A DNA stretch of 64,000 bases from Naegleria gruberi (Eukaryota), in NCBI GenBank assembly GCA_000004985.1, contig GG738846.1; one strand, given 5' to 3'. Numbering within the stretch: position 1 is the stretch's first letter; every line of letters starts with the position of its first letter. A program made the translations under genes and the position numbers. Under the pieces are notes generated by a model, which searched no databases, was not told where the DNA came from, and saw only the letters and a list, made by a program, of their open reading frames with translations. Of this stretch, positions 31,707-41,456 are shown piece after piece.

Positions 31707-31855
31707 TTTTTAAAAATTTATTTTCACATTCTTATTTGAACAATCTTAAAGTTGTTAGACACAATTCTTTAAATATTTAAATGTAAAATTAATATATTTA
31801 TTCATATTAATTCATTATTTAATACATTGTTTTTTAAAATTTATTTTTGAAACAT

Positions 31856-32692
31856 TTATTGTTTAGTATTATTATTATTTGGAGTTGTGGATCTACAACG
31901 ATCAAATGATGGGAAATTACAACCAGCAAATACTGCCACAAGGGCAATAATAACTAAAATACAAATACAAATAATTGAAAGGATAATAATTCTCTTTTTC
32001 ATGGAACTTTTCAATTTTCTAGATTTTCCTCTGAAACCATATGCTTGATCTTGTAATTGTTCTGTTCTTTCTACGAGAGTTTCTAATTTTTCTCCTCTCT
32101 CAATAACTTTGTCAATATTTGAAATCATTACATCTTTGGTGGCATCTATTTGATTTTTAAGTTTGTAAATTTTATCATTTTCAAAATTATTGTAATGAGC
32201 CATTCTATCTTTAATAATACTTGAAACAGCCTTATAGGTTTGATTTCCAAAACTGTTGTTACTAAAACCTTGTCTCTTAAATTGTGTTTCTACATCATCA
32301 ATAAAATTATAACAAATTCTCATTGGACATTCTGCATCGGAACAAACAAGAAAAAGATATTTGTTATCCACAACTTTGTAATGAAAATTAAATGTTGCTT
32401 GTGTTAGTGTTCGTTTGTGATTAACATGAGAAATCTTTTCTCCAATACTTAGACAAGTTTGTCTAATAATTTGAGCGTGTTGATGACTTGTCCCTGAAAA
32501 ACTTCCAACAAAATTTCCATTACTTATTGTCAATCCACGAAAATATTCTCCAATTAAAATACACGATGATGATGAATCGGTAGAGGAAGCATTAGGATTT
32601 GATGTATAATATTCAGATGAATCAATGGCATCCTTGAAAACAGATATGAGTCCATAAACAAGTTGTGCCGGAGAAGAGGAGGATGAAGACAT
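31856..32692 (-). CDS. Longin-domain R-SNARE (VAMP7-like)
   Basis: Longin domain (...TFNFHYKVVDNKYLFLVCSDAECPMRICYNFIDDVETQF), R-SNARE motif (IDKVIERGEKLETLVERTEQLQDQA), and a C-terminal TM segment plus Cys-rich tail. Confidence 0.75.
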   Translation of the reverse strand: MSSSSSSPAQLVYGLISVFKDAIDSSEYYTSNPNASSTDSSSSCILIGEYFRGLTISNGNFVGSFSGTSHQHAQIIRQTCLSIGEKISHVNHKRTLTQATFNFHYKVVDNKYLFLVCSDAECPMRICYNFIDDVETQFKRQGFSNNSFGNQTYKAVSSIIKDRMAHYNNFENDKIYKLKNQIDATKDVMISNIDKVIERGEKLETLVERTEQLQDQAYGFRGKSRKLKSSMKKRIIILSIICICILVIIALVAVFAGCNFPSFDRCRSTTPNNNNTKQ

Positions 32693-32934
32693 TTTTTGAT
32701 CGTTGTTTTTGTGTGCTATCTTAGAGAGTTAATTAGAACCTCAACAACCACACAGTATTAAAATTTCTCTCACTCAAAATGTACCAAGTTTTGACGGTGT
32801 AACAATCCATCCTCGAGAAAATGTTTCAAAGTAACAACGTTTAAAAACAATACAAAATAAATTCAGAAAGGATTTAAGGATGTGAAAGAGGATAAATTTA
32901 TATGACCTCGGTTGGATATTTGAATAGTAATTAA

Positions 32935-33044
32935 AGGTTCTTAATTTAAAAAAAACAGACAAACAATGTTTCTTATTTGATACTATAGTAATGAACAAGT
33001 ATTCTTGTGTTGGGATTATTTATAATCTAATTTGTGGAAAAGGG
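32935..33044 (+). pseudogene. Relic copy of the lipid-kinase promoter-proximal region plus exon 1, with no splice donor and a stop after 24 codons
   Basis: About 110 bp are near-identical to 36822..36918 and 38953..39049 (...tcttatttgatactatagtaatgaacaagtattcttgtgttgggattatttataatc[t/c]aatttgtggaaaag) apart from a 12-bp indel. After ggaaaag the GT donor is replaced and the frame ends: MNKYSCVGIIYNLICGKGIQGMPC*. Confidence 0.5.
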
Positions 33045-35612
33045 ATTCAAGGAATGCCCTGTTGATTTTGGATAACGTTTTTAAGAATTTGTTATTATTG
33101 GATTTGCAAAATTATATTCTCCAAACAAGATTAATGAAAGTCCTAGCCTAGTTTAAAGATGGGAGGGTAAGAGGAATCTTGGTATTCATTTATTTAGACG
33201 ATTATTAAATCATTCAAAAGATCAGTTTATCTTGATTAGTTCTAAAGGATTTAGAAAAATTTGATTCCTCATTCAAAAAGACAAACGTTGCGAAAAAAAG
33301 AAACCTCTTCTCCACTCATGTGTAAAATAATATTCTCTCCCCACTCGTGGGAAATGTAATGTTTTTTAAAAGAAAACCAATAATAAACCAATAAATAAAG
33401 CCCATTCTACAACTTCTACCTATTAGGTAGTATGTAACTTGGTTGCTGCTTTATTCAACAACAACAAACCTCAAAAAACCAAATCCACTACCAAAACAAA
33501 AACACTTCCAAATATTTCCACTACAACAATAAAACACCTTACCTTCTCTTCATGAATGCCTATAGCTATTTCCATCAAGAAATTACTTAAGGATATGTTT
33601 ATTAGTAGAGATGGTAATTAGTTGTACACTTTTGTAAATAGAAAGGAAGTTTAATGAACAACAATACAATAGTTTTAAATCACCTCATCCTAACAAGAAT
33701 ATAATGAGAAAAGTGAAAAAAACTTACCCAGCAACGATAATTCCATAGCCTTAACAAGAGAAGGGATTGGAATAAGAAGAATTATAATAAAAATAGTACC
33801 GTGGATCTTAGAAATCACAATTTGAAGAATCAGTAAAGCCCAATATTTCGTAATTTTCTAACCAACACCCCTAAATTTCTACCTCTCCTCCCCACTTGTA
33901 CTCTTTTTGCATACCTAGGAGTTTTGTTAGACGTTTATTAAAGTTTAGTAAAAATTTTAGAAGACAAAAAGATTACAGCTTTAAATTAAAGGTTTATCAA
34001 CAAAATAAAGTGTCGTTTCTGAAATACTAAATTTATTCTTCTCACACGCGTGTAGATTAATTCGCAAGAATAATAATAATAAATAATGATTGAGGATATC
34101 AACTTTTGTATAATATATAAACTCTAATACTTCTAATGGTTGCAACTAGCCTAAAAAACCATCTACTCAATTCAAAAAACTTTAAAAAACCATAAAAACA
34201 AATCTGAAATATCTGTAGTGCTTTAAATTTAAAATAAACACACAAATCATATAAAAAATTGTTAAAATTTTCATATATTTGATTAAGAAACCAGGTTAAT
34301 AATGATCCTATCTTGTTCCTGATAATGATATCCACTTAATATCTACCAAGCAATACTACAAAAGCTATTGCTTTACATAATTGGCTATCCAAATGGAAAT
34401 GTCATTTGACCAAATTATCTGTCACCTAATTGGATATGATTAAATGAAATCCAATAAAATAATAAATTATTAAAAAATTATTGACTTACTAGCCTACATA
34501 AGCTTAACGCTTACTGCGAATAAATAAGTATGTTAATATATTTCTAGAGAATGAAAATTCATTCCAATTTCCAACTCTCAGTACATTGAAGGGCTGGTAA
34601 AATTGTTTCAAATAACTTTAAGCATCATTGGATACTTTGAATCTAGCATCATCAGAACTTGTAAAAGAGTTTCATTTGAGTTTTTCAATCACGAAATCTT
34701 TCGAAAGCTCTGGTCTTTTGAACTCCTCAACTTTTCTTGGCTTGATGATTGTAAGGTTCAAGTTTTTTCTCTTTCTGGGTGGAGTGATGTTTTTCTGGAT
34801 TTTTTCTTGTTTCACACTTTTTTTCTTGTTCCTGTTTAATTCTTAATTCAGAATATGGTGTTTCATTAAGATTTTCTTCTACTTCCTCAACATCTTCCGT
34901 TCCATCAACAATAGAATCAGCAAGATTAGGGAATGTTTTAACTTCAGCAAATGCAGTAAAGAAAAAGTTGACATCAGGAAAAAGAAAGCTTCAATAAATG
35001 TGCAGGAAAGGTTTAAACATTTCTTGAATTATGCTCAAACAAATTTCAAAAATTGCTCAAACATTTTTCAAACCACTTTTTTAAAAAGGCGCCTTTTTAT
35101 TTCTTTTTGACTTTTCCGAAAATCTAATCTTCTTAATTAGGTTGAAGATTTTTAAAAATTAATGGTCTTTTTTATTTTATATTACTTTAAACCTAGAAAC
35201 TCTATTAAACGCTATGAGGAATGGATTTGTTTTCGATTGTAACTTACAAAATAAAGTGAATATTTTCGCTTATTAAGTATATCAGAACCACCTTGATTCC
35301 GAGTTGTTAAAAATTTTCGATGCTCAAAAAATTATTAGAAATGTCTGGCAATAACAAAAAAAGAAATCCACAAAAGAAACAACACTCTCCAAGTTCAAGA
35401 CTTGCTCAATAAAGATTTACATCCTTCAAACACCATACTAAACCAAACGGTACTAAGATCCACCATTGATTGATACTGGTGATGTTAAAGACTGTATTTA
35501 CCTCAACCATTACCATAATCACTACCTTCAAAATCAGCAATAATTGAGAATACTACAAACAAATTATCATCCTCGAATGTTGCTTTATCCAGGATCATCA
35601 ATCACCTAATAA

Positions 35613-35940
35613 ATCAAAGAACCCCAAGATATTGTCAATAGCGTACACCAAGAAAAGGTTATGCCGACAATAGCGTAACCTTTTCTTAGTGACGAATCAA
35701 AGAACCCCAAGACATTGTGGCAAAGATCTGAAACACTGTTGTGTGATATCTTTGAAAAACCATCCGCTCTTAGTTGGTGCTTACTTCATTTTTAGAATTT
35801 TTGTAAATTCTCCTTGTCGAATAGATAAACGAAAGTCAAATGAAACGAAAGATATTTAATCAGAGGATTTCCTCTTACTACGATGATCATAGAACCGGCA
35901 GCTAACAGTCAATGGCATAACCTTTTCTTAGTACGTTATC
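35613..35940. repeat. Palindrome/direct-repeat cluster (16-bp inverted-repeat hairpin plus twice-repeated 27-bp unit) with copy-A-specific 200-bp insertion; homolog in copy B at 37938..38075
   Basis: Copy B holds a perfect inverted repeat ctaagaaaaggttatg-N10-cataaccttttcttag (37983..38024) flanked by two copies of atcaaagaaccccaagatattgtcaat and a third copy of the right arm. In copy A the second unit is split at attgt|caat by 35719..35918. Confidence 0.5.
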
Positions 35941-36127
35941 ACTTTATCAAGACGTTTTGTTCGTTTAATGGAAACATGTTTTTCTTTTCCCCGGTCAACA
36001 ATTTTGATCCAAATATTCCCTTCCTAATACTTATTTCCTTTGGATCATAAAAATTTTCTGTATAATAAGTTTTCTCCTTTTCATCAAACATTGGTTTCAG
36101 TGATCGTTCAAACTCATCCAATGACAT
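35939..36127 (-). CDS. Small 62-aa ORF inside the repeat unit; intact in copy A, frameshifted in copy B. Doubtful gene
   Basis: MSLDEFERSLKPMFDEKEKTYYTENFYDPKEISIRKGIFGSKLLTGEKKNMFPLNEQNVLIK. The copy B homolog (~38090..38280) terminates early after ...TENFYEIKGNKY*. Confidence 0.15.
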   Translation of the reverse strand: MSLDEFERSLKPMFDEKEKTYYTENFYDPKEISIRKGIFGSKLLTGEKKNMFPLNEQNVLIK

Positions 36128-36866
36128 AACAAAATGTATTTCGAAGTTGTCTTAGATGTAATGTCAATCTTGTTGCGTAGGTTCGAAATATTGTTGGCAC
36201 ACAAAAGAACAATCATCAAACAAAGGTTCGTTGATGTGGAGTTTTATAATTTTAGTAGTAATTTTTTTTTGATCAATATCAAAATTGGGATTCTCTTAAT
36301 ATGCAATACCTTAAAACTCGTCTTACAATCCTAAAACTAAATACTTTATAGTGAGTGGTAATATAATTTCTCCTCTATTCAAATGTATCAAACAAAAAAC
36401 TGCTCTGAATAAATCTTAATACCTAAAAACAGCAATAACAAGGCTACAAACTACCTAAGAATAGGTAGATGTTATAGTGTGAGGAATTCCATAACTCAGA
36501 AAGCGAGAATATTAATATCCAATATCTATCCCAAACCGCTTTTTTAGGATATGGCTTTTTAAAAAGGGCAATCTGGTTGAATTTTTACTTATTTATGGCT
36601 ATGGAATTTTATAAAATATATTGTTTCTAGGGATGTAGTGACATGTGTCCTCCTACCAATAATCCAATAACAATATCAACCACTATTAAGGATTTTTGGA
36701 ACAATTTTACGTATTGTGGTAAATTTCTAGATTTGTAAATTAAAAGAAATATCTAGAAATTTATTTGACCTCAGTAATTACATTTATATGTTATGCAATG
36801 GTAATTAATTTAAAAAAAAAAGACAAACAATTCTGCAAACATTGTTTCTTATTTGATACTATAGTA

Positions 36867-37534
36867 ATGAACAAGTATTCTTGTGTTGGGATTATTTATA
36901 ATCCAATTTGTGGAAAAGGTACCTATTTTATTAGTTGATCATCACGATCCATTATTACTTTATAAAAACAATTTCAATTAAACCTTAAATTGTATAATAA
37001 TTGATTTAAAGGAAAGGCAGAAGATGTTTTCCAACGAATAATATTTCCCAAATTGCATGATCATTTCACAACTAAAAATCAAATTCCGATGCAGTACATG
37101 AAAACCCAATGCAGAGATGATGGCGTGAGATGTGCATTTGAATTGGTGACCAAATATCAATGTGATTTACTTTTTGGAATTGGAGGTGATGGCAGTCTGG
37201 GAAGTGTACTAAACGGATTGATTTTAGGTTGTCTACATTTGAATCCAAATGTTCTCAACTCAGAGGAATCATCAAGGCAACTCCCAGTCCATTTAGGAGT
37301 AATACCCAGTGGTACAGGAAATGATTTTGTTAGAACTCTATTGGAAACATCTGGAGATTACTATTTGGACATAGTTGATGGTTTTGAAAATGGATATTTT
37401 GAGGATAGTGTCAGTAAAATTGTGGACATGATCATTTCTGATAGCAAGACGATACCTATTGATGTTGGAAGAATGGATTATACTCCATCATCAATTGATG
37501 AGGAATTTTCTAATGGGAATGATACGACTGGAGG
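36867..37534 (+). CDS. Sphingosine/ceramide-kinase-like lipid kinase (DAGK catalytic domain), copy A, truncated by gap: join(36867..36918,37012..37534)
   Basis: Exon 1 MNKYSCVGIIYNPICGK ends in a GTACCT donor. After a 93-nt intron, exon 2 reads GKAEDVFQRIIFPKLHDHF...LLFGIGGDGSLGSVLNGL...VIPSGTGNDFVRTL. The sequence stops at the N-run. Confidence 0.6.
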
Positions 37535-37584
37535 NNNNNNNNNNNNNNNNNNNNNNNNNNNNNNNNNNNNNNNNNNNNNNNNNN
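37535..37584. other. Assembly gap (50 N) between the tandem repeat copies
   Basis: A run of exactly 50 N. Confidence 0.95.
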
Positions 37585-39664
37585 AATAGAGTGAATATTT
37601 TCGCTTATTAAGTATATCAGAACCACCTTGATTCCGAGTTGTTAAAAATTTTCGATGCTCAAAAAATTATTAGAAATGTCTGGCAATAACAAAAAAAGAA
37701 ATCCACAAAAGAAACAACACTCTCCAAGTTCAAGACTTGCTCAATAAAGATTTACATCCTTCAAACACCATACTAAACCAAACGGTACTAAGATCCACCA
37801 TTGATTGATACTGGTGATGTTAAAGACTGTATTTACCTCAACCATTACCATAATCACTACCTTCAAAATCAGCAATAATTGAGAATACTACAAACAAATT
37901 ATCATCCTCGAATGTTGCTTTATCCAGGATCATCAATCACCTAATAAATCAAAGAACCCCAAGATATTGTCAATAGCGTACACTAAGAAAAGGTTATGCC
38001 GACAATAGCATAACCTTTTCTTAGTGACGAATCAAAGAACCCCAAGATATTGTCAATGGCATAACCTTTTCTTAGTACGTTATCACTTTATCAAGACGTT
38101 TTGTTCGTTTAATGGAAACATGTTTTTCTTTTCCCCGGTCTACAATTTTGATCCAAATATTCCCTTCCTAATACTTATTTCCTTTGATTTCATAAAAATT
38201 TTCAGTATAATAAGTTTTCTCCTTTTCATCAAACACTGGTTTCAATGATCGTTCAAACTCATCCAATGACATAACAAAATGTATTTCGAAGTTGTCTTAA
38301 ATGTAATGTCAATCTTGTTGCGTAGGTTCGAAATATTGTTGGCACACAAAAGAACAATCATCAAACAAAGGTTCGTTGATGTGGAGTTTTATAATTTTAG
38401 TAGTAATTTTTTTTGATCAATATCAAAATTGGGATTCTCTTAATATGCAATACCTTAAAACTCGTCTTACAATCCTAAAACTAAATACTTTATAGTGAGT
38501 GGTAATATAATTTCTCCTCTATTCAAATGTATCAAACAAAAAACTGCTCTGAATAAATCTTAATACCTAAAAACAGCAATAACAAGGCTACAAACTACCT
38601 AAGAATAGGTAGATGTTATAGTGTGAGGAATTCCATAACTCAGAAAGCGAGAATATTAATATCCAATATCTATCCCAAACCGCTTTTTTAGGATATGGCT
38701 TTTTAAAAAGGGCAATCTGGTTGAATTTTTACTTATTTATGGCTATGGAATTTTATAAAATATATTGTTTCTAGGGATGTAGTGACATGTGTCCAATAAC
38801 AATACATCAACCACTATTAAGGATTTTTGGAACAATTTTACGTATTGTGGTAAATTTCTAGATTTGTAAATTAAAAGAAATATCCAGAAATTTATTTGAC
38901 CTCAGTAATTACATTTATATGTTATGCAATGGTAATTAATTTAAAAAAAAAAGACAAGCAATTCTGCAAACATTGTTTCTTATTTGATACTATAGTAATG
39001 AACAAGTATTCTTGTGTTGGGATTATTTATAATCCAATTTGTGGAAAAGGTACCTATTTTATTAGTTGATCATCACGATCCATTATTACTTTATAAAAAC
39101 AATTTCAATTAAACCTTAAATTGTGTAATAATTGATTTAAAGGAAAGGCAGAAGATGTTTTCCAACGAATAATATTTCCCAAATTGCATGATCATTTCAC
39201 AACTAAAAATCAAATTCCGATGCAGTGCATGAAAACCCAATGCAGAGATGATGGCGTGAGATGTGCATTTGAATTGGTGACCAAATATCAATGTGATTTA
39301 CTTTTTGGAATTGGAGGTGATGGCAGTCTGGGAAGTGTACTAAACGGATTGATTTTAGGTTGTCTACATTTGAATCCAAATGTTCTCAACTCAGAGGAAT
39401 CATCAAGGCAACTCCCAGTCCATTTAGGAGTAATACCCAGTGGTACAGGAAATGATTTTGTTAGAACTCTATTGGAAACATCTGGAGATTACTATTTGGA
39501 CATAGTTGATGGTTTTGAAAATGGATATTTTGAGGATAGTGTCAGTAAAATTGTGGACATGATCATTTCTGATAGCAAGACGATACCTATTGATGTTGGA
39601 AGAATGGATTATACTCCATCATCAATTGATGAGGAATTTTCTAATGGGAATGATACGACTGGAG
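37585..39664 (+). repeat. Tandem duplication copy B, continuous with the complete lipid-kinase gene
   Basis: Homology to copy A starts immediately after the gap (aatagagtgaatattttcgc...) and ends at ...gatacgactggag. Confidence 0.8.
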
Positions 39665-40239
39665 TGAAACTGAAAGATTGTAATGAGATGATGAAAAGCC
39701 GATTCTTCCTTAATGCATCAACGATTGGTATTGGTCCAGAGATTTTAAAGAGTGTCAATGATCCAAATTCTTTCCTTCCTAAGAGTTTACAATATTATAT
39801 TCAACCAATATTGAAAGAGTTCACATATAAAAATCCACTACTTGAATTGGATATTACAAGCGAAAAGAAGATTTGCAAAAAGATGCAACTAGTCATTGTT
39901 TCCAATGGGAGGTATGTCAATAACGGATTCAAAATGAATCCATTTGCAAGTTTAACCAATAACCAACTTGATTTGTGCATTGTTGAGGATGTTGGTGTAT
40001 TTGATTTACATCTTTTCTATTACCTCAAATATGGAACTCATTTGAATTATCCTAAAGTCATTATGGAAAGCACAAAAAGTCTCACTGTTGATACTAAAGA
40101 ATGTGTATTCGTTGAATGTGATGGTGATGTTATTGGGATGTTACCAGTGATGTACAAAGTAATGCCATCAGTGGTGAATGTTCTGGTTCCAAAAAGTTTC
40201 ACCCCAACAGCTGCAAATAATAAATTAAATATTAATTAA
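38998..40239 (+). CDS. Sphingosine/ceramide-kinase-like lipid kinase (DAGK catalytic domain), copy B, complete: join(38998..39049,39143..40239)
   Basis: Same exon 1 and intron as copy A. The GGDGS and SGTGND motifs are present, and the C-terminal half (LVIVSNGRYVNNGFKMNP...ECDGDVIG) fits the DAGK_cat/SphK fold. Confidence 0.7.
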
Positions 40240-40412
40240 TTAAAACAACACTCGGTGCTTTAATGATCTTCAACCGATGAGCGTTAAATTCTGGCGTGTA
40301 TTCTTCGGTAAAAGTTTTTATTGTAAAATATCCCATTTGTTAGGGTGAGCAAAATTGAAAAAATTCTTGTTGAAAAAAAAAGACAGTCACTCTATCTTCC
40401 ACTCCACTCACT

Positions 40413-41456
40413 ATGTCTACCTCTTTCATTTATAAGGGTCAATTGACCGGTCACAACGGTATGTTGATAACACAATTTTAATACTGATGAACATTATATA
40501 TTTGCTTCCATACATTTAATACAAATTATTAATATGTATAATTATTATTAATATAATATTTTTCTAAAGGTTGGGTCACTTGTTTGTCCACCTCTGCTGC
40601 CAATCCAAACATCTTGGTTTCTGGTTCCCGTGATAAGTCTATTGTTGTCTGGGAATTGACTAAGGAACAAGGTGCTTATGGTGTTCCAAAGAGATCCCTC
40701 ACTGGTCACGCTCACTATGTCTCTGACATCTGTATGACCGCTGATGCTCAATATGTCTTGTCTGGTTCTTGGGATAAGACTCTCAGATTGTGGAATTTGA
40801 GCAATGGTAACTGTGAAAGAAACTTCTTGGGTCACACCAACGATATCTTGTCTGTTTCCTTCTCTCACGATGACAGACAAATCGTCTCTGGTTCCCGTGA
40901 TAAGACCATCAAGTTGTGGAACACTTTGGGTGAATGCAAGTACAACATTACCGATAAGGGTCACAAGGAATGGGTCAGTTGTGTTAGATTCGTTGCCAAC
41001 AAGGAAAAGCCATTGATCATTTCTGCTGGTTGGGACAAGATTGTCAAGTTGTGGGATTTGTCCACTTGTACCTTGAACACCAATTTGGTTGGTCACACTG
41101 GTTACATTAACTCTGTCTGTGTTTCTCCTGATGCTTCCTTGTGTGCTTCTGGTGGTAAGGACGGTGTTGCCGTTTTGTGGGATTTGACTAAGGGTGAACA
41201 CTTGTATCACTTGCCTTTGGATGGTAACGATGTTATCAATGCTTTGGCTTTCTCCCCAACTAAGTACTGGTTGTGTGCTGCTACTGATAATTGTATCAAG
41301 ATCTGGGACCTCCAATCCAAGACTGTCCTCGCTGAATTGGTTCCTGAATCAAAGGGTAACAAGAAGCCAGCTTGTATTTCTCTTGCCTGGTCTGCTGATG
41401 GTACTACTTTGTTCTCTGGTTACACTGATAACACCATCCGTGTCTGGGGTTGTTAA
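40413..41456 (+). CDS. RACK1: RACK1 (G-beta-like WD40 protein); 2 exons: join(40413..40458,40570..41456)
   Basis: [15 protein letters not shown](G)|[29 protein letters not shown]... is collinear with RACK1 along seven WD repeats. The intron is GTATGT...CTAAAG (111 nt). Codons are strongly biased. Confidence 0.9.

What the first reader, a model, noticed from the sequence alone, without database searches (positions are those of the whole stretch)
35253..39664. Tandem ~2.3-kb duplication of the lipid-kinase 5' region, with the assembly gap exactly at the copy boundary
Copy A (35253..37534) and copy B (37585..39664) align at high identity, with scattered substitutions, small indels and one 200-bp indel. 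Each contains ~1.6 kb of upstream sequence plus exon 1 and ~520 bp of exon 2 of a sphingosine-kinase-like gene. The 50-N gap sits precisely where copy A would either continue into the gene or jump back to the repeat start. The locus is therefore either a genuine tandem partial or complete gene duplication, or a haplotype/repeat mis-assembly. The divergence between copies (substitutions, indel, frameshift in the small ORF) argues for two real, non-identical copies.
Basis: seen in the sequence. Interest (0 to 1): 0.6.

Follow-up and report, generated by a model that had tools for sequence, protein, structure and literature searches.

The report
Probable false duplication at assembly gap
The two near-identical 2.1–2.3 kb copies on either side of the 50-N gap are most likely the two parental versions (haplotypes) of a single stretch of the Naegleria gruberi genome, laid side by side by the assembler, so this is probably not a real gene duplication.

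Summary
Window 35250-37534 (copy A) and 37585-39665 (copy B) align end to end at 99.3% identity, apart from a 191-bp indel, a 15-bp indel and four 1-2 bp indels. They flank the only N-run in the 64-kb window. The window is Naegleria gruberi NEG-M, a heterozygous organism whose draft assembly has 1977 contigs in 784 scaffolds.

The best explanation (about 0.85) is an assembly artefact of a known kind: "duplicated overlapping contigs", also called false heterotype duplication. The homology runs to the last base of the left contig and from the first base of the right contig. All 18 non-tip differences lie in the central 1448 bp, and both ends (399 and 438 bp) have none. Two of the 14 substitutions sit within 5 bp of the contig tips. 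Copy A's coding part is intact, with one missense change. A and B differ about as much as two N. gruberi isolates differ nearby.

A real tandem duplication with its junction hidden in the gap cannot be excluded from sequence alone (about 0.1).

The gene is a genuine two-exon, 382-aa DAGK_cat + YegS_C lipid kinase conserved in Heterolobosea. A separate, real relic copy of its promoter and exon 1 lies at 32894-33043.

The parts
35250..37534 (+). Copy A: the last 2285 bp of the left contig (proposed haplotype 1). It holds 1617 bp upstream, exon 1, the intron and 523 nt of exon 2 of the lipid kinase.
   Evidence: aligns to 37585-39665 at 99.3%. The homology runs to the final base before the N-run.
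37535..37584 (.). Scaffold gap of 50 N, the only N-run in the 64-kb window.
37585..39665 (+). Copy B: the first 2081 bp of the right contig (proposed haplotype 2). It continues without a break into the rest of the kinase gene.
   Evidence: The independent contig L001 is collinear with 38890-40406 across the point where copy A stops.
35717..35907 (+). 191-bp segment present in A and absent in B. It is unique in the window, bounded by a 2-bp GT repeat, and lies inside a small local direct/inverted repeat cluster. It is the difference most likely to have blocked merging of the two haplotypes.
36648..36662 (+). 15-bp segment present in A and absent in B.
35255..35648 (+). Left terminus of the overlap with no A/B differences. 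The span from the contig-2 start to the first non-tip variant is 399 bp.
37097..37533 (+). Right terminus of the overlap with no A/B differences. The span from the last variant to the contig-1 end is 438 bp.
36867..37534 (+). Kinase 5' part in copy A: exon 1 at 36867-36918, intron at 36919-37011, exon 2 from 37012 to the contig end. It is in frame, the splice sites are intact, and there is one missense difference (Tyr46 versus Cys46).
38998..40239 (+). Complete kinase gene: exon 1 at 38998-39049, intron at 39050-39142, exon 2 at 39143-40239. The product is 382 aa with DAGK_cat + YegS_C domains.
   Evidence: The exon-1-encoded VGIIYNP..GKG motif aligns with the Willaertia and N. fowleri homologues.
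32894..33043 (+). Relic third copy of the promoter-proximal region plus exon 1. It is a real, older partial duplication and is not part of the A/B artefact.
   Evidence: It is present in the independent contig L002.

Best explanation
This is an assembly artefact: a false heterotype duplication of the 'duplicated overlapping contigs' type. N. gruberi NEG-M is heterozygous. At this locus its two haplotypes differ by about 0.6% substitutions plus a 191-bp indel and a 15-bp indel. Reads crossing these indels could not be merged, so the assembler attached one haplotype version to the left flank (contig 1, ending at 37534) and the other to the right flank (contig 2, starting at 37585). Each contig ran on into the shared, variant-free sequence only as far as its last haplotype-anchored read reached. 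The scaffolder then placed the two contigs in order with a 50-N spacer instead of overlapping them by about 2.2 kb. On this reading the real genome has one copy. The kinase gene is single at this locus, and 'copy A' and 'copy B' are its two alleles, including a Tyr46/Cys46 polymorphism. Shown here: the geometry, the difference pattern, the tip errors, the intact coding sequence and the organism. Inferred: the assembler's behaviour and single-copy status, because no reads were available.
For: (1) Geometry. The homology reaches 0 bp from both contig ends, and the contigs are adjacent on one scaffold across the only gap in 64 kb. This is the definition of a duplicated overlapping contig pair. By a mate-pair test, 5698/5947, 13159/13571 and 1094/1366 such pairs were classed as mis-assemblies in three Sanger-era vertebrate assemblies (PMC2864568). 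[quoted passage not shown]
(2) Difference pattern. All 18 non-tip differences lie within the central 1448 bp (about 1 per 80 bp). The terminal 399 and 438 bp have none, P about 1e-4 under uniform placement. Both tips are shorter than my assumed Sanger read length (about 600-800 bp), as expected if each contig ends with its last haplotype-anchored read.
(3) Tip errors. Two of the 14 substitutions are at the last base of contig 1 and the fifth base of contig 2 (P = 0.002). The independent contig L001 has the copy-B base at the first of these, which suggests thin coverage at the tips.
(4) Left flank. The first four bases of contig 2 (AATA) match the left flank of copy A (35250-35253), not the sequence that ends the unit (ACTG).
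(5) Coding sequence. The 575 coding nt of copy A are in frame with intact splice sites and one missense change.
(6) Divergence. A and B differ by 0.58% substitutions plus 6 indel events. Contigs from another isolate differ from the window by 0.3-0.4% substitutions plus 2-5 indels, so the A/B difference is in the allelic range.
(7) Mosaic. L001 carries the B, A, B states at the three discriminating sites it covers, as expected for segregating, recombining alleles.
(8) Organism. It is N. gruberi NEG-M, reported as heterozygous (PMC9928731). The assembly has 1977 contigs in 784 scaffolds (PMC6125883).
(9) No second product. No second, truncated or junction-bearing kinase protein appears among 5.8 billion proteins.
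Against: No reads, mate pairs or depth data were available, so single-copy status is inferred and not shown. An assembler can also break contigs at the boundaries of a true tandem repeat. A variant-free zone spanning a true junction would itself make a gap there more likely, so evidence items 1 and 2 are weaker than their raw P values suggest. The locus does carry one real, older partial duplication of promoter plus exon 1 (32894-33043), so duplication has happened here. A 6-bp AGTGAA occurs near both outer limits (35255-35260 and 39663-39668), which could be junction microhomology; my rough estimate of the chance probability is 0.05-0.1. The convention behind the 50-N gap length in this assembly could not be checked.
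Confidence: 0.85

Rival explanations
1. A genuine recent tandem partial duplication with a unit of about 2.3 kb and its junction hidden in the 50-N gap. Copy A would be a 5'-truncated-gene fragment: promoter, exon 1 and the first 523 nt of exon 2, encoding most of the DAGK_cat domain and lacking YegS_C. The intact gene would follow it.
For: The two sequences really are distinct: a 191-bp indel, a 15-bp indel and 12 substitutions. Assemblers also break at true repeat boundaries. A real older duplication of the promoter/exon-1 module exists 3.9 kb upstream. AGTGAA occurs near both outer limits.
Against: This needs both contig ends to stop at, or just short of, the junction. It gives no reason why all 18 differences avoid the terminal 399/438 bp unless one invokes ascertainment. 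Contig 2 begins with flank-type AATA, not unit-end ACTG. Copy A shows no decay in its coding part. No truncated or junction product is present in any database searched. Base rates for this geometry strongly favour artefact.
Confidence: 0.1
2. A larger true duplication, for example of the whole kinase gene plus upstream sequence, in which the gap is badly undersized. The gap would hide the rest of gene copy A and the upstream part of unit B.
For: It cannot be excluded from sequence, because the visible homology is limited by the contig ends on both sides.
Against: It requires at least about 0.6 kb of coding sequence plus further intergenic sequence inside a gap written as 50 N. No second near-identical kinase protein or gene fragment is seen in the window or in the databases; the 90% cluster has only the NCBI and ENA versions of one gene. 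The only N. gruberi paralogue found is 38% identical and on another scaffold.
Confidence: 0.03
3. A homotype false duplication: one haplotype assembled twice because of sequencing errors.
For: There are errors at the contig tips.
Against: A 191-bp unique insertion, a 15-bp indel and 12 internal substitutions are not read errors. An independent isolate shares states with both A and B, so the variants are biological.
Confidence: 0.02

Closest known systems
Duplicated overlapping contigs (DOCs) of Kelley & Salzberg 2010 (PMC2864568), equivalent to the false heterotype duplications of Ko et al. 2022 (PMC9516828)
   Same: There are two adjacent contigs on one scaffold separated by an assembly gap. 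The end of one aligns to the start of the next right up to the contig ends, at over 98% identity. The differences are true polymorphisms (SNPs plus indels). The source is a heterozygous organism with an older draft assembly. A gene's 5' exons appear duplicated as a result.
   Different: The diagnostic read-level criteria (half depth, mate-pair compression, haplotype-specific k-mers) could not be applied here. Both studies were on vertebrates, not a protist.
True recent tandem segmental or partial-gene duplication
   Same: Two head-to-tail, non-identical copies are present in the assembled sequence, and the locus has an older real partial duplication.
   Different: No junction sequence is visible. 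The limits of the copies are set by the contig ends and not by any sequence feature. The differences avoid both ends. The truncated copy shows no decay.
YegS/BmrU/DgkB-type soluble lipid kinases (Pfam DAGK_cat PF00781 + YegS_C PF19279)
   Same: The gene in the unit has both domains above the Pfam cut-offs, the GGDGS nucleotide-binding motif and the conserved C-terminal ECDGD/E motif. The nearest solved structures are DgkB 2qv7 and BmrU 3t5p.
   Different: It is only about 23-36% identical to the bacterial members and carries eukaryote-specific insertions. It belongs to a heterolobosean clade (Willaertia 42%, N. fowleri 41%, N. gruberi paralogue 38%). Its substrate is unknown.

Membership tests
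Duplicated overlapping contigs / false heterotype duplication | Two contigs placed adjacently on one scaffold with an assembly gap between the duplicated segments | tested here: met
   The 50-N run at 37535-37584 is the only gap in the window, and it lies exactly between A and B.
Duplicated overlapping contigs / false heterotype duplication | The alignment runs to within about 10 bp of the facing contig ends, at 96% identity or more over at least 400 bp | tested here: met
   The alignment reaches 0 bp from both ends: 2077 aligned columns at 99.3%. The criteria are from PMC2864568.
Duplicated overlapping contigs / false heterotype duplication | The differences are biological (haplotype-specific) variants and not read errors | tested here: met
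   There are 191-bp and 15-bp indels and 12 internal substitutions. An independent isolate carries a mix of A and B states.
Duplicated overlapping contigs / false heterotype duplication | About half the flank read depth on each copy, and 1-copy k-mers | not testable with these tools
   No reads were available.
Duplicated overlapping contigs / false heterotype duplication | Mate-pair or long-read distances fit better when the two contigs are merged | not testable with these tools
   No mate-pair or long-read data were available.
Duplicated overlapping contigs / false heterotype duplication | The source genome is heterozygous | tested here: met
   The organism was identified as N. gruberi NEG-M. 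Heterozygosity is reported for N. gruberi, and Naegleria is described as 'mainly a heterozygous diploid' (PMC9928731). No quantitative value was obtained, because the primary paper is not held.
True tandem duplication | A junction sequence joining the unit end to the unit start | tested here: inconclusive
   The junction position falls in the gap. Contig 2's first bases, AATA, match the left flank and not the unit end. No junction-bearing truncated kinase protein exists in the protein collection.
True tandem duplication | Two copies present in an independent assembly of the species | tested here: inconclusive
   Only short contigs from one other sample exist. L001 covers 38890-40406 once, as a single mosaic contig. 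Nothing covering the rest of the unit could be recovered.
YegS/BmrU/DgkB-type lipid kinase (DAGK_cat + YegS_C) | Both Pfam domains above the gathering score | tested here: met
   YegS_C scores 67.4 bits (cut-off 27) and DAGK_cat 56.7 bits (cut-off 23.6).
YegS/BmrU/DgkB-type lipid kinase (DAGK_cat + YegS_C) | Glycine-rich GGDG(T/S) nucleotide-binding motif and conserved C-terminal acidic motif | tested here: met
   G75 G76 D77 G78 and E342, D344, G345 are invariant in the alignment with homologues.
YegS/BmrU/DgkB-type lipid kinase (DAGK_cat + YegS_C) | Lipid kinase activity and substrate | not testable with these tools
   This needs an enzyme assay.
   The PDB sequence search at E <= 0.01 returns only bacterial DgkB/BmrU/diacylglycerol-kinase chains. 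Named database relatives are 'YegS/Rv2252/BmrU family lipid kinase' or 'diacylglycerol kinase (ATP)'. The superfamily (DAGK_cat) is the same, so the label is loosely acceptable.

The most novel reading that the evidence does not exclude
The duplication is real. On this reading NEG-M carries a very young tandem copy of the promoter plus the first 191 codons of a heterolobosean YegS-like lipid kinase. Together with the older relic promoter/exon-1 copy at 32894-33043 and the structural difference that another isolate shows at the same module edge, this would make the locus a recurrent hotspot for 5'-end gene duplication, possibly expressing a truncated DAGK_cat-only protein.
Probability: 0.1. Interest if true: 0.3.

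Novelty: not a real feature. Interest (0 to 1): 0.1.

Why it matters
If it is an artefact, the practical value is curation. The N. gruberi reference at this position should be collapsed by about 2.3 kb. The two 'copies' then yield a phased pair of alleles: 12 SNPs, 6 indels and one Tyr46/Cys46 polymorphism. The kinase gene model (NAEGRDRAFT_62024, 339 aa) should be extended to 382 aa by adding exon 1. It is also a caution against counting gap-flanked near-identical repeats in this assembly as gene gains. If the duplication were real, it would be an ordinary young partial gene duplication of modest interest.

Tried and rejected
(1) I concatenated all stop-to-stop ORFs of 45 aa or more from 33044-36900 (1513 aa) to fish out gene calls on independent contigs and any transposon or pseudogene homology. 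There were no hits at E <= 0.01. So no more independent contigs could be recovered, and there is no sign that the unit or the spacer is a mobile element.
(2) A scan of JGI metagenome contigs for relatives of the kinase found none. A junction-pattern scan there was therefore judged pointless and was not run.
(3) Looking up the NCBI protein P0034 to see the record's own gene calls returned 'not on record'.
(4) The primary genome paper (Cell 2010) and the 2011 review are not held. PRJEB11402 is not mentioned in any held paper. I therefore have no quantitative heterozygosity figure, no confirmation of the sequencing or assembly method, no gap-size convention, and no information on which strain ERR1078381 is.
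(5) Rfam and tRNA scans of 32500-40500 found nothing credible.
(6) Recent horizontal transfer of the kinase was suggested by the bacteria-only hits in the word-indexed search. I rejected it after the exhaustive search found heterolobosean homologues at 38-42%.
(7) A coding versus non-coding comparison of substitution density (1/575 versus 11/1506) is not significant (P = 0.20), so it does not discriminate.
Full report
**What is in the sequence**

The window has a single N-run, 37535-37584 (50 N), and only one large internal repeat. Window 35250-37534 (copy A) aligns with 37585-39665 (copy B). A gapped global alignment gives 2063 matches and 14 mismatches (99.3%). The indels are:
- a 191-bp segment present only in A (35717-35907)
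- a 15-bp segment present only in A (36648-36662)
- four 1-2 bp indels

A starts at 35250, and the '200-bp indel' is 191 bp.

**Organism and gene**

Exact look-up shows that the exon-2 product is the N. gruberi protein XP_002682720 / NAEGRDRAFT_62024, on a 1.0-Mb scaffold. The upstream neighbour is NAEGRDRAFT_29713. The gene has two exons:
- exon 1 at 38998-39049
- a 93-nt GT..AG intron
- exon 2 at 39143-40239, giving a 382-aa product

The exon-1-encoded VGIIYNP..GKG segment aligns with the N-termini of the Willaertia magna and N. fowleri homologues. The 339-aa NCBI model therefore lacks its true N-terminus.

Pfam finds DAGK_cat and YegS_C above their cut-offs. The nearest solved structures are bacterial DgkB and BmrU. 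A word-indexed search saw only bacterial relatives at about 23% identity. The exhaustive search then found homologues in Willaertia (42%), N. fowleri (41%) and an N. gruberi paralogue on another scaffold (38%). The gene is thus a resident heterolobosean lipid kinase. It is 'sphingosine-kinase-like' only at superfamily level.

**Geometry of the repeat**

Copy A ends at the last base before the gap, and copy B begins at the first base after it. The left limit of the repeat (35250) is simply where contig 2 begins. The right limit (39664/5) is simply where contig 1 ends. No sequence feature marks either limit.

This is the 'duplicated overlapping contigs' configuration of Kelley & Salzberg. Heterozygous sequence is split into two contigs, each carrying homozygous sequence on the opposite side, and the two are placed adjacently. 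In their three affected Sanger-era assemblies, 5698/5947, 13159/13571 and 1094/1366 such pairs were classed as mis-assemblies by mate pairs (PMC2864568). [quoted passage not shown]

N. gruberi is reported as heterozygous (PMC9928731). Its assembly has 1977 contigs in 784 scaffolds (PMC6125883).

**Pattern of differences**

- **Central clustering.** Leaving out the two tip mismatches, all 18 difference events lie between 35649 and 37096, about one per 80 bp. The terminal 399 bp and 438 bp have none. Under uniform placement this has probability about 1e-4. It is what haplotype splitting predicts: the bubble closes where a long variant-free stretch begins, and each contig overhangs into that stretch by less than one read (I assume Sanger reads of about 600-800 bp).
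- **Tip errors.** Two of the 14 substitutions lie at the very last base of contig 1 (37534, G versus T) and at the fifth base of contig 2 (37589, G versus A); P = 0.002. An independent contig carries T at the first of these. The contig tips therefore look like thinly covered read ends.
- **Left flank of contig 2.** Its first four bases (AATA) match the flank to the left of copy A, not the sequence ACTG that precedes the right limit. This suggests that the molecule behind contig 2 continued leftwards into the same flank as copy A.

**Coding content and level of divergence**

Copy A's 575 coding nucleotides are in frame with intact splice sites. They differ from B by one missense change, Tyr46 versus Cys46. 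Cys is the state in N. fowleri and in the paralogue.

A and B differ by 0.58% substitutions and six indel events. Two contigs from another sample, ENA ERR1078381, cover neighbouring parts of the same locus:
- L001 differs from the window by 0.40% substitutions and 2 indels.
- L002 differs from the window by 0.31% substitutions and 5 indels.

The A/B difference is therefore within the range of allelic variation. At the three discriminating sites it covers, L001 reads B-type, A-type, B-type. That is expected if these are recombining alleles at one locus, although a collapsed consensus of two copies could look the same.

**What cannot be excluded**

Assemblers also break at the edges of true repeats. 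A variant-free zone across a true junction would itself favour a gap there. The geometry and the clean termini are therefore strong evidence but not proof. A true tandem duplication with its junction inside the gap remains possible (about 0.1). So does a larger duplication hidden in an undersized gap (about 0.03).

Two points speak for a real duplication:
- The locus has a real older partial duplication of promoter plus exon 1.
- A 6-bp AGTGAA occurs near both outer limits (35255-35260 and 39663-39668). My rough estimate is that this arises by chance with probability 0.05-0.1.

A homotype, error-driven duplication is excluded by the large indels and by the sharing of variants with another isolate.

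**Searches for independent evidence that failed**

- ORF translations from 33044-36900 have no match among 5.8 billion proteins.
- JGI metagenomes hold no relative of the kinase.
- The NCBI protein's position is not on record.
- The primary genome paper is not held.
- No truncated or junction-bearing kinase product exists in the protein collection. The 90% cluster holds only the NCBI and ENA versions of one gene.

**Verdict**

The duplication exists in the assembly, but most likely (0.85) not in the organism. It is best read as two haplotypes of one heterozygous segment laid in tandem across a scaffold gap, which is a known kind of artefact. Interest is low. The useful outputs are a correction to the reference, a phased allele pair and an improved gene model. 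Long reads or a simple PCR would settle the question.

Noticed in passing
window 32894-33043: This is a relic third copy of the kinase's promoter-proximal region plus exon 1. It is 97.6% identical over the last 84 bp and weaker upstream, and has a 12-bp deletion in the 5' leader. It ends exactly at the 3' end of exon 1, has lost the GT donor (GGGATT), carries Pro13Leu, and reads into a stop after 24 codons. It lies next to the 5' end of the divergent longin/synaptobrevin gene. It is present in the independent contig L002 (99.1% collinear with 31826-34063), so it is a real, older partial duplication.
   Followed up: partly
L001:1-151 versus window 38890 (= 36759 in copy A): The independent N. 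gruberi contig matches the window at 99% from 38890 rightwards, but its first 151 bp match nothing in the 64-kb window. The breakpoint coincides within about 5 bp with the left edge of the promoter/exon-1 module that is also duplicated at 32894. This is either a structural polymorphism just upstream of the kinase promoter or a chimeric MEGAHIT contig.
   Followed up: partly
window 33044-36866: About 3.8 kb between the relic exon-1 copy and the real exon 1 has no ORF with any homologue among 5.8 billion proteins, no tRNA and no Rfam match. The UniProt accessions of the two flanking genes are consecutive (D2UZQ4 and D2UZQ5), which suggests nothing is annotated between them. By my recollection N. 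gruberi is gene-dense, which would make such a spacer unusually long. Together with the roughly 150-bp direct repeats at its two ends, it might be an old insertion.
   Followed up: partly
window 38998-40239 (NAEGRDRAFT_62024): The public gene model (339 aa, starting at MQCMKT) misses exon 1 and the first 26 codons of exon 2. A 382-aa two-exon model restores the conserved N-terminal (V/I)G(V/I)IYNP..G motif seen in the Willaertia and N. fowleri homologues.
   Followed up: yes
window 35612-35935 and 37947-38076: There is a small cluster of direct repeats (AATCAAAGAACCCCAAGATATTGT, twice, 83 bp apart) and 19-nt inverted repeats (CACTAAGAAAAGGTTATGC / GCATAACCTTTTCTTAGTG). The inverted repeat is a perfect hairpin with an 8-nt loop in copy B and is 89% complementary in copy A. 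The 191-bp A-only segment is inserted inside this cluster and is bounded by a GT dinucleotide on each side. Its function is unknown.
   Followed up: partly
window 34675-34990, minus strand: Two overlapping reading frames give a lysine/glutamate-rich, coding-looking stretch (..VDGTEDVEEVEENLNETPYSELRIKQEQEKK.. then ..KQEKIQKNITPPRKRKNLNLTIIKPRKVEEFKRPELSKDFVIEKLK*). They are separated by a frameshift. This may be a decayed gene fragment, but no homologue was found.
   Followed up: partly
ENA run ERR1078381 / ERZ929261 (loci L001, L002): An assembly filed as a 'metagenome' contains N. gruberi nuclear contigs about 99% identical to NEG-M, including the paralogous kinase (P0186). It is a potential independent source for checking this and other gap-flanked repeats in the reference.
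   Followed up: no
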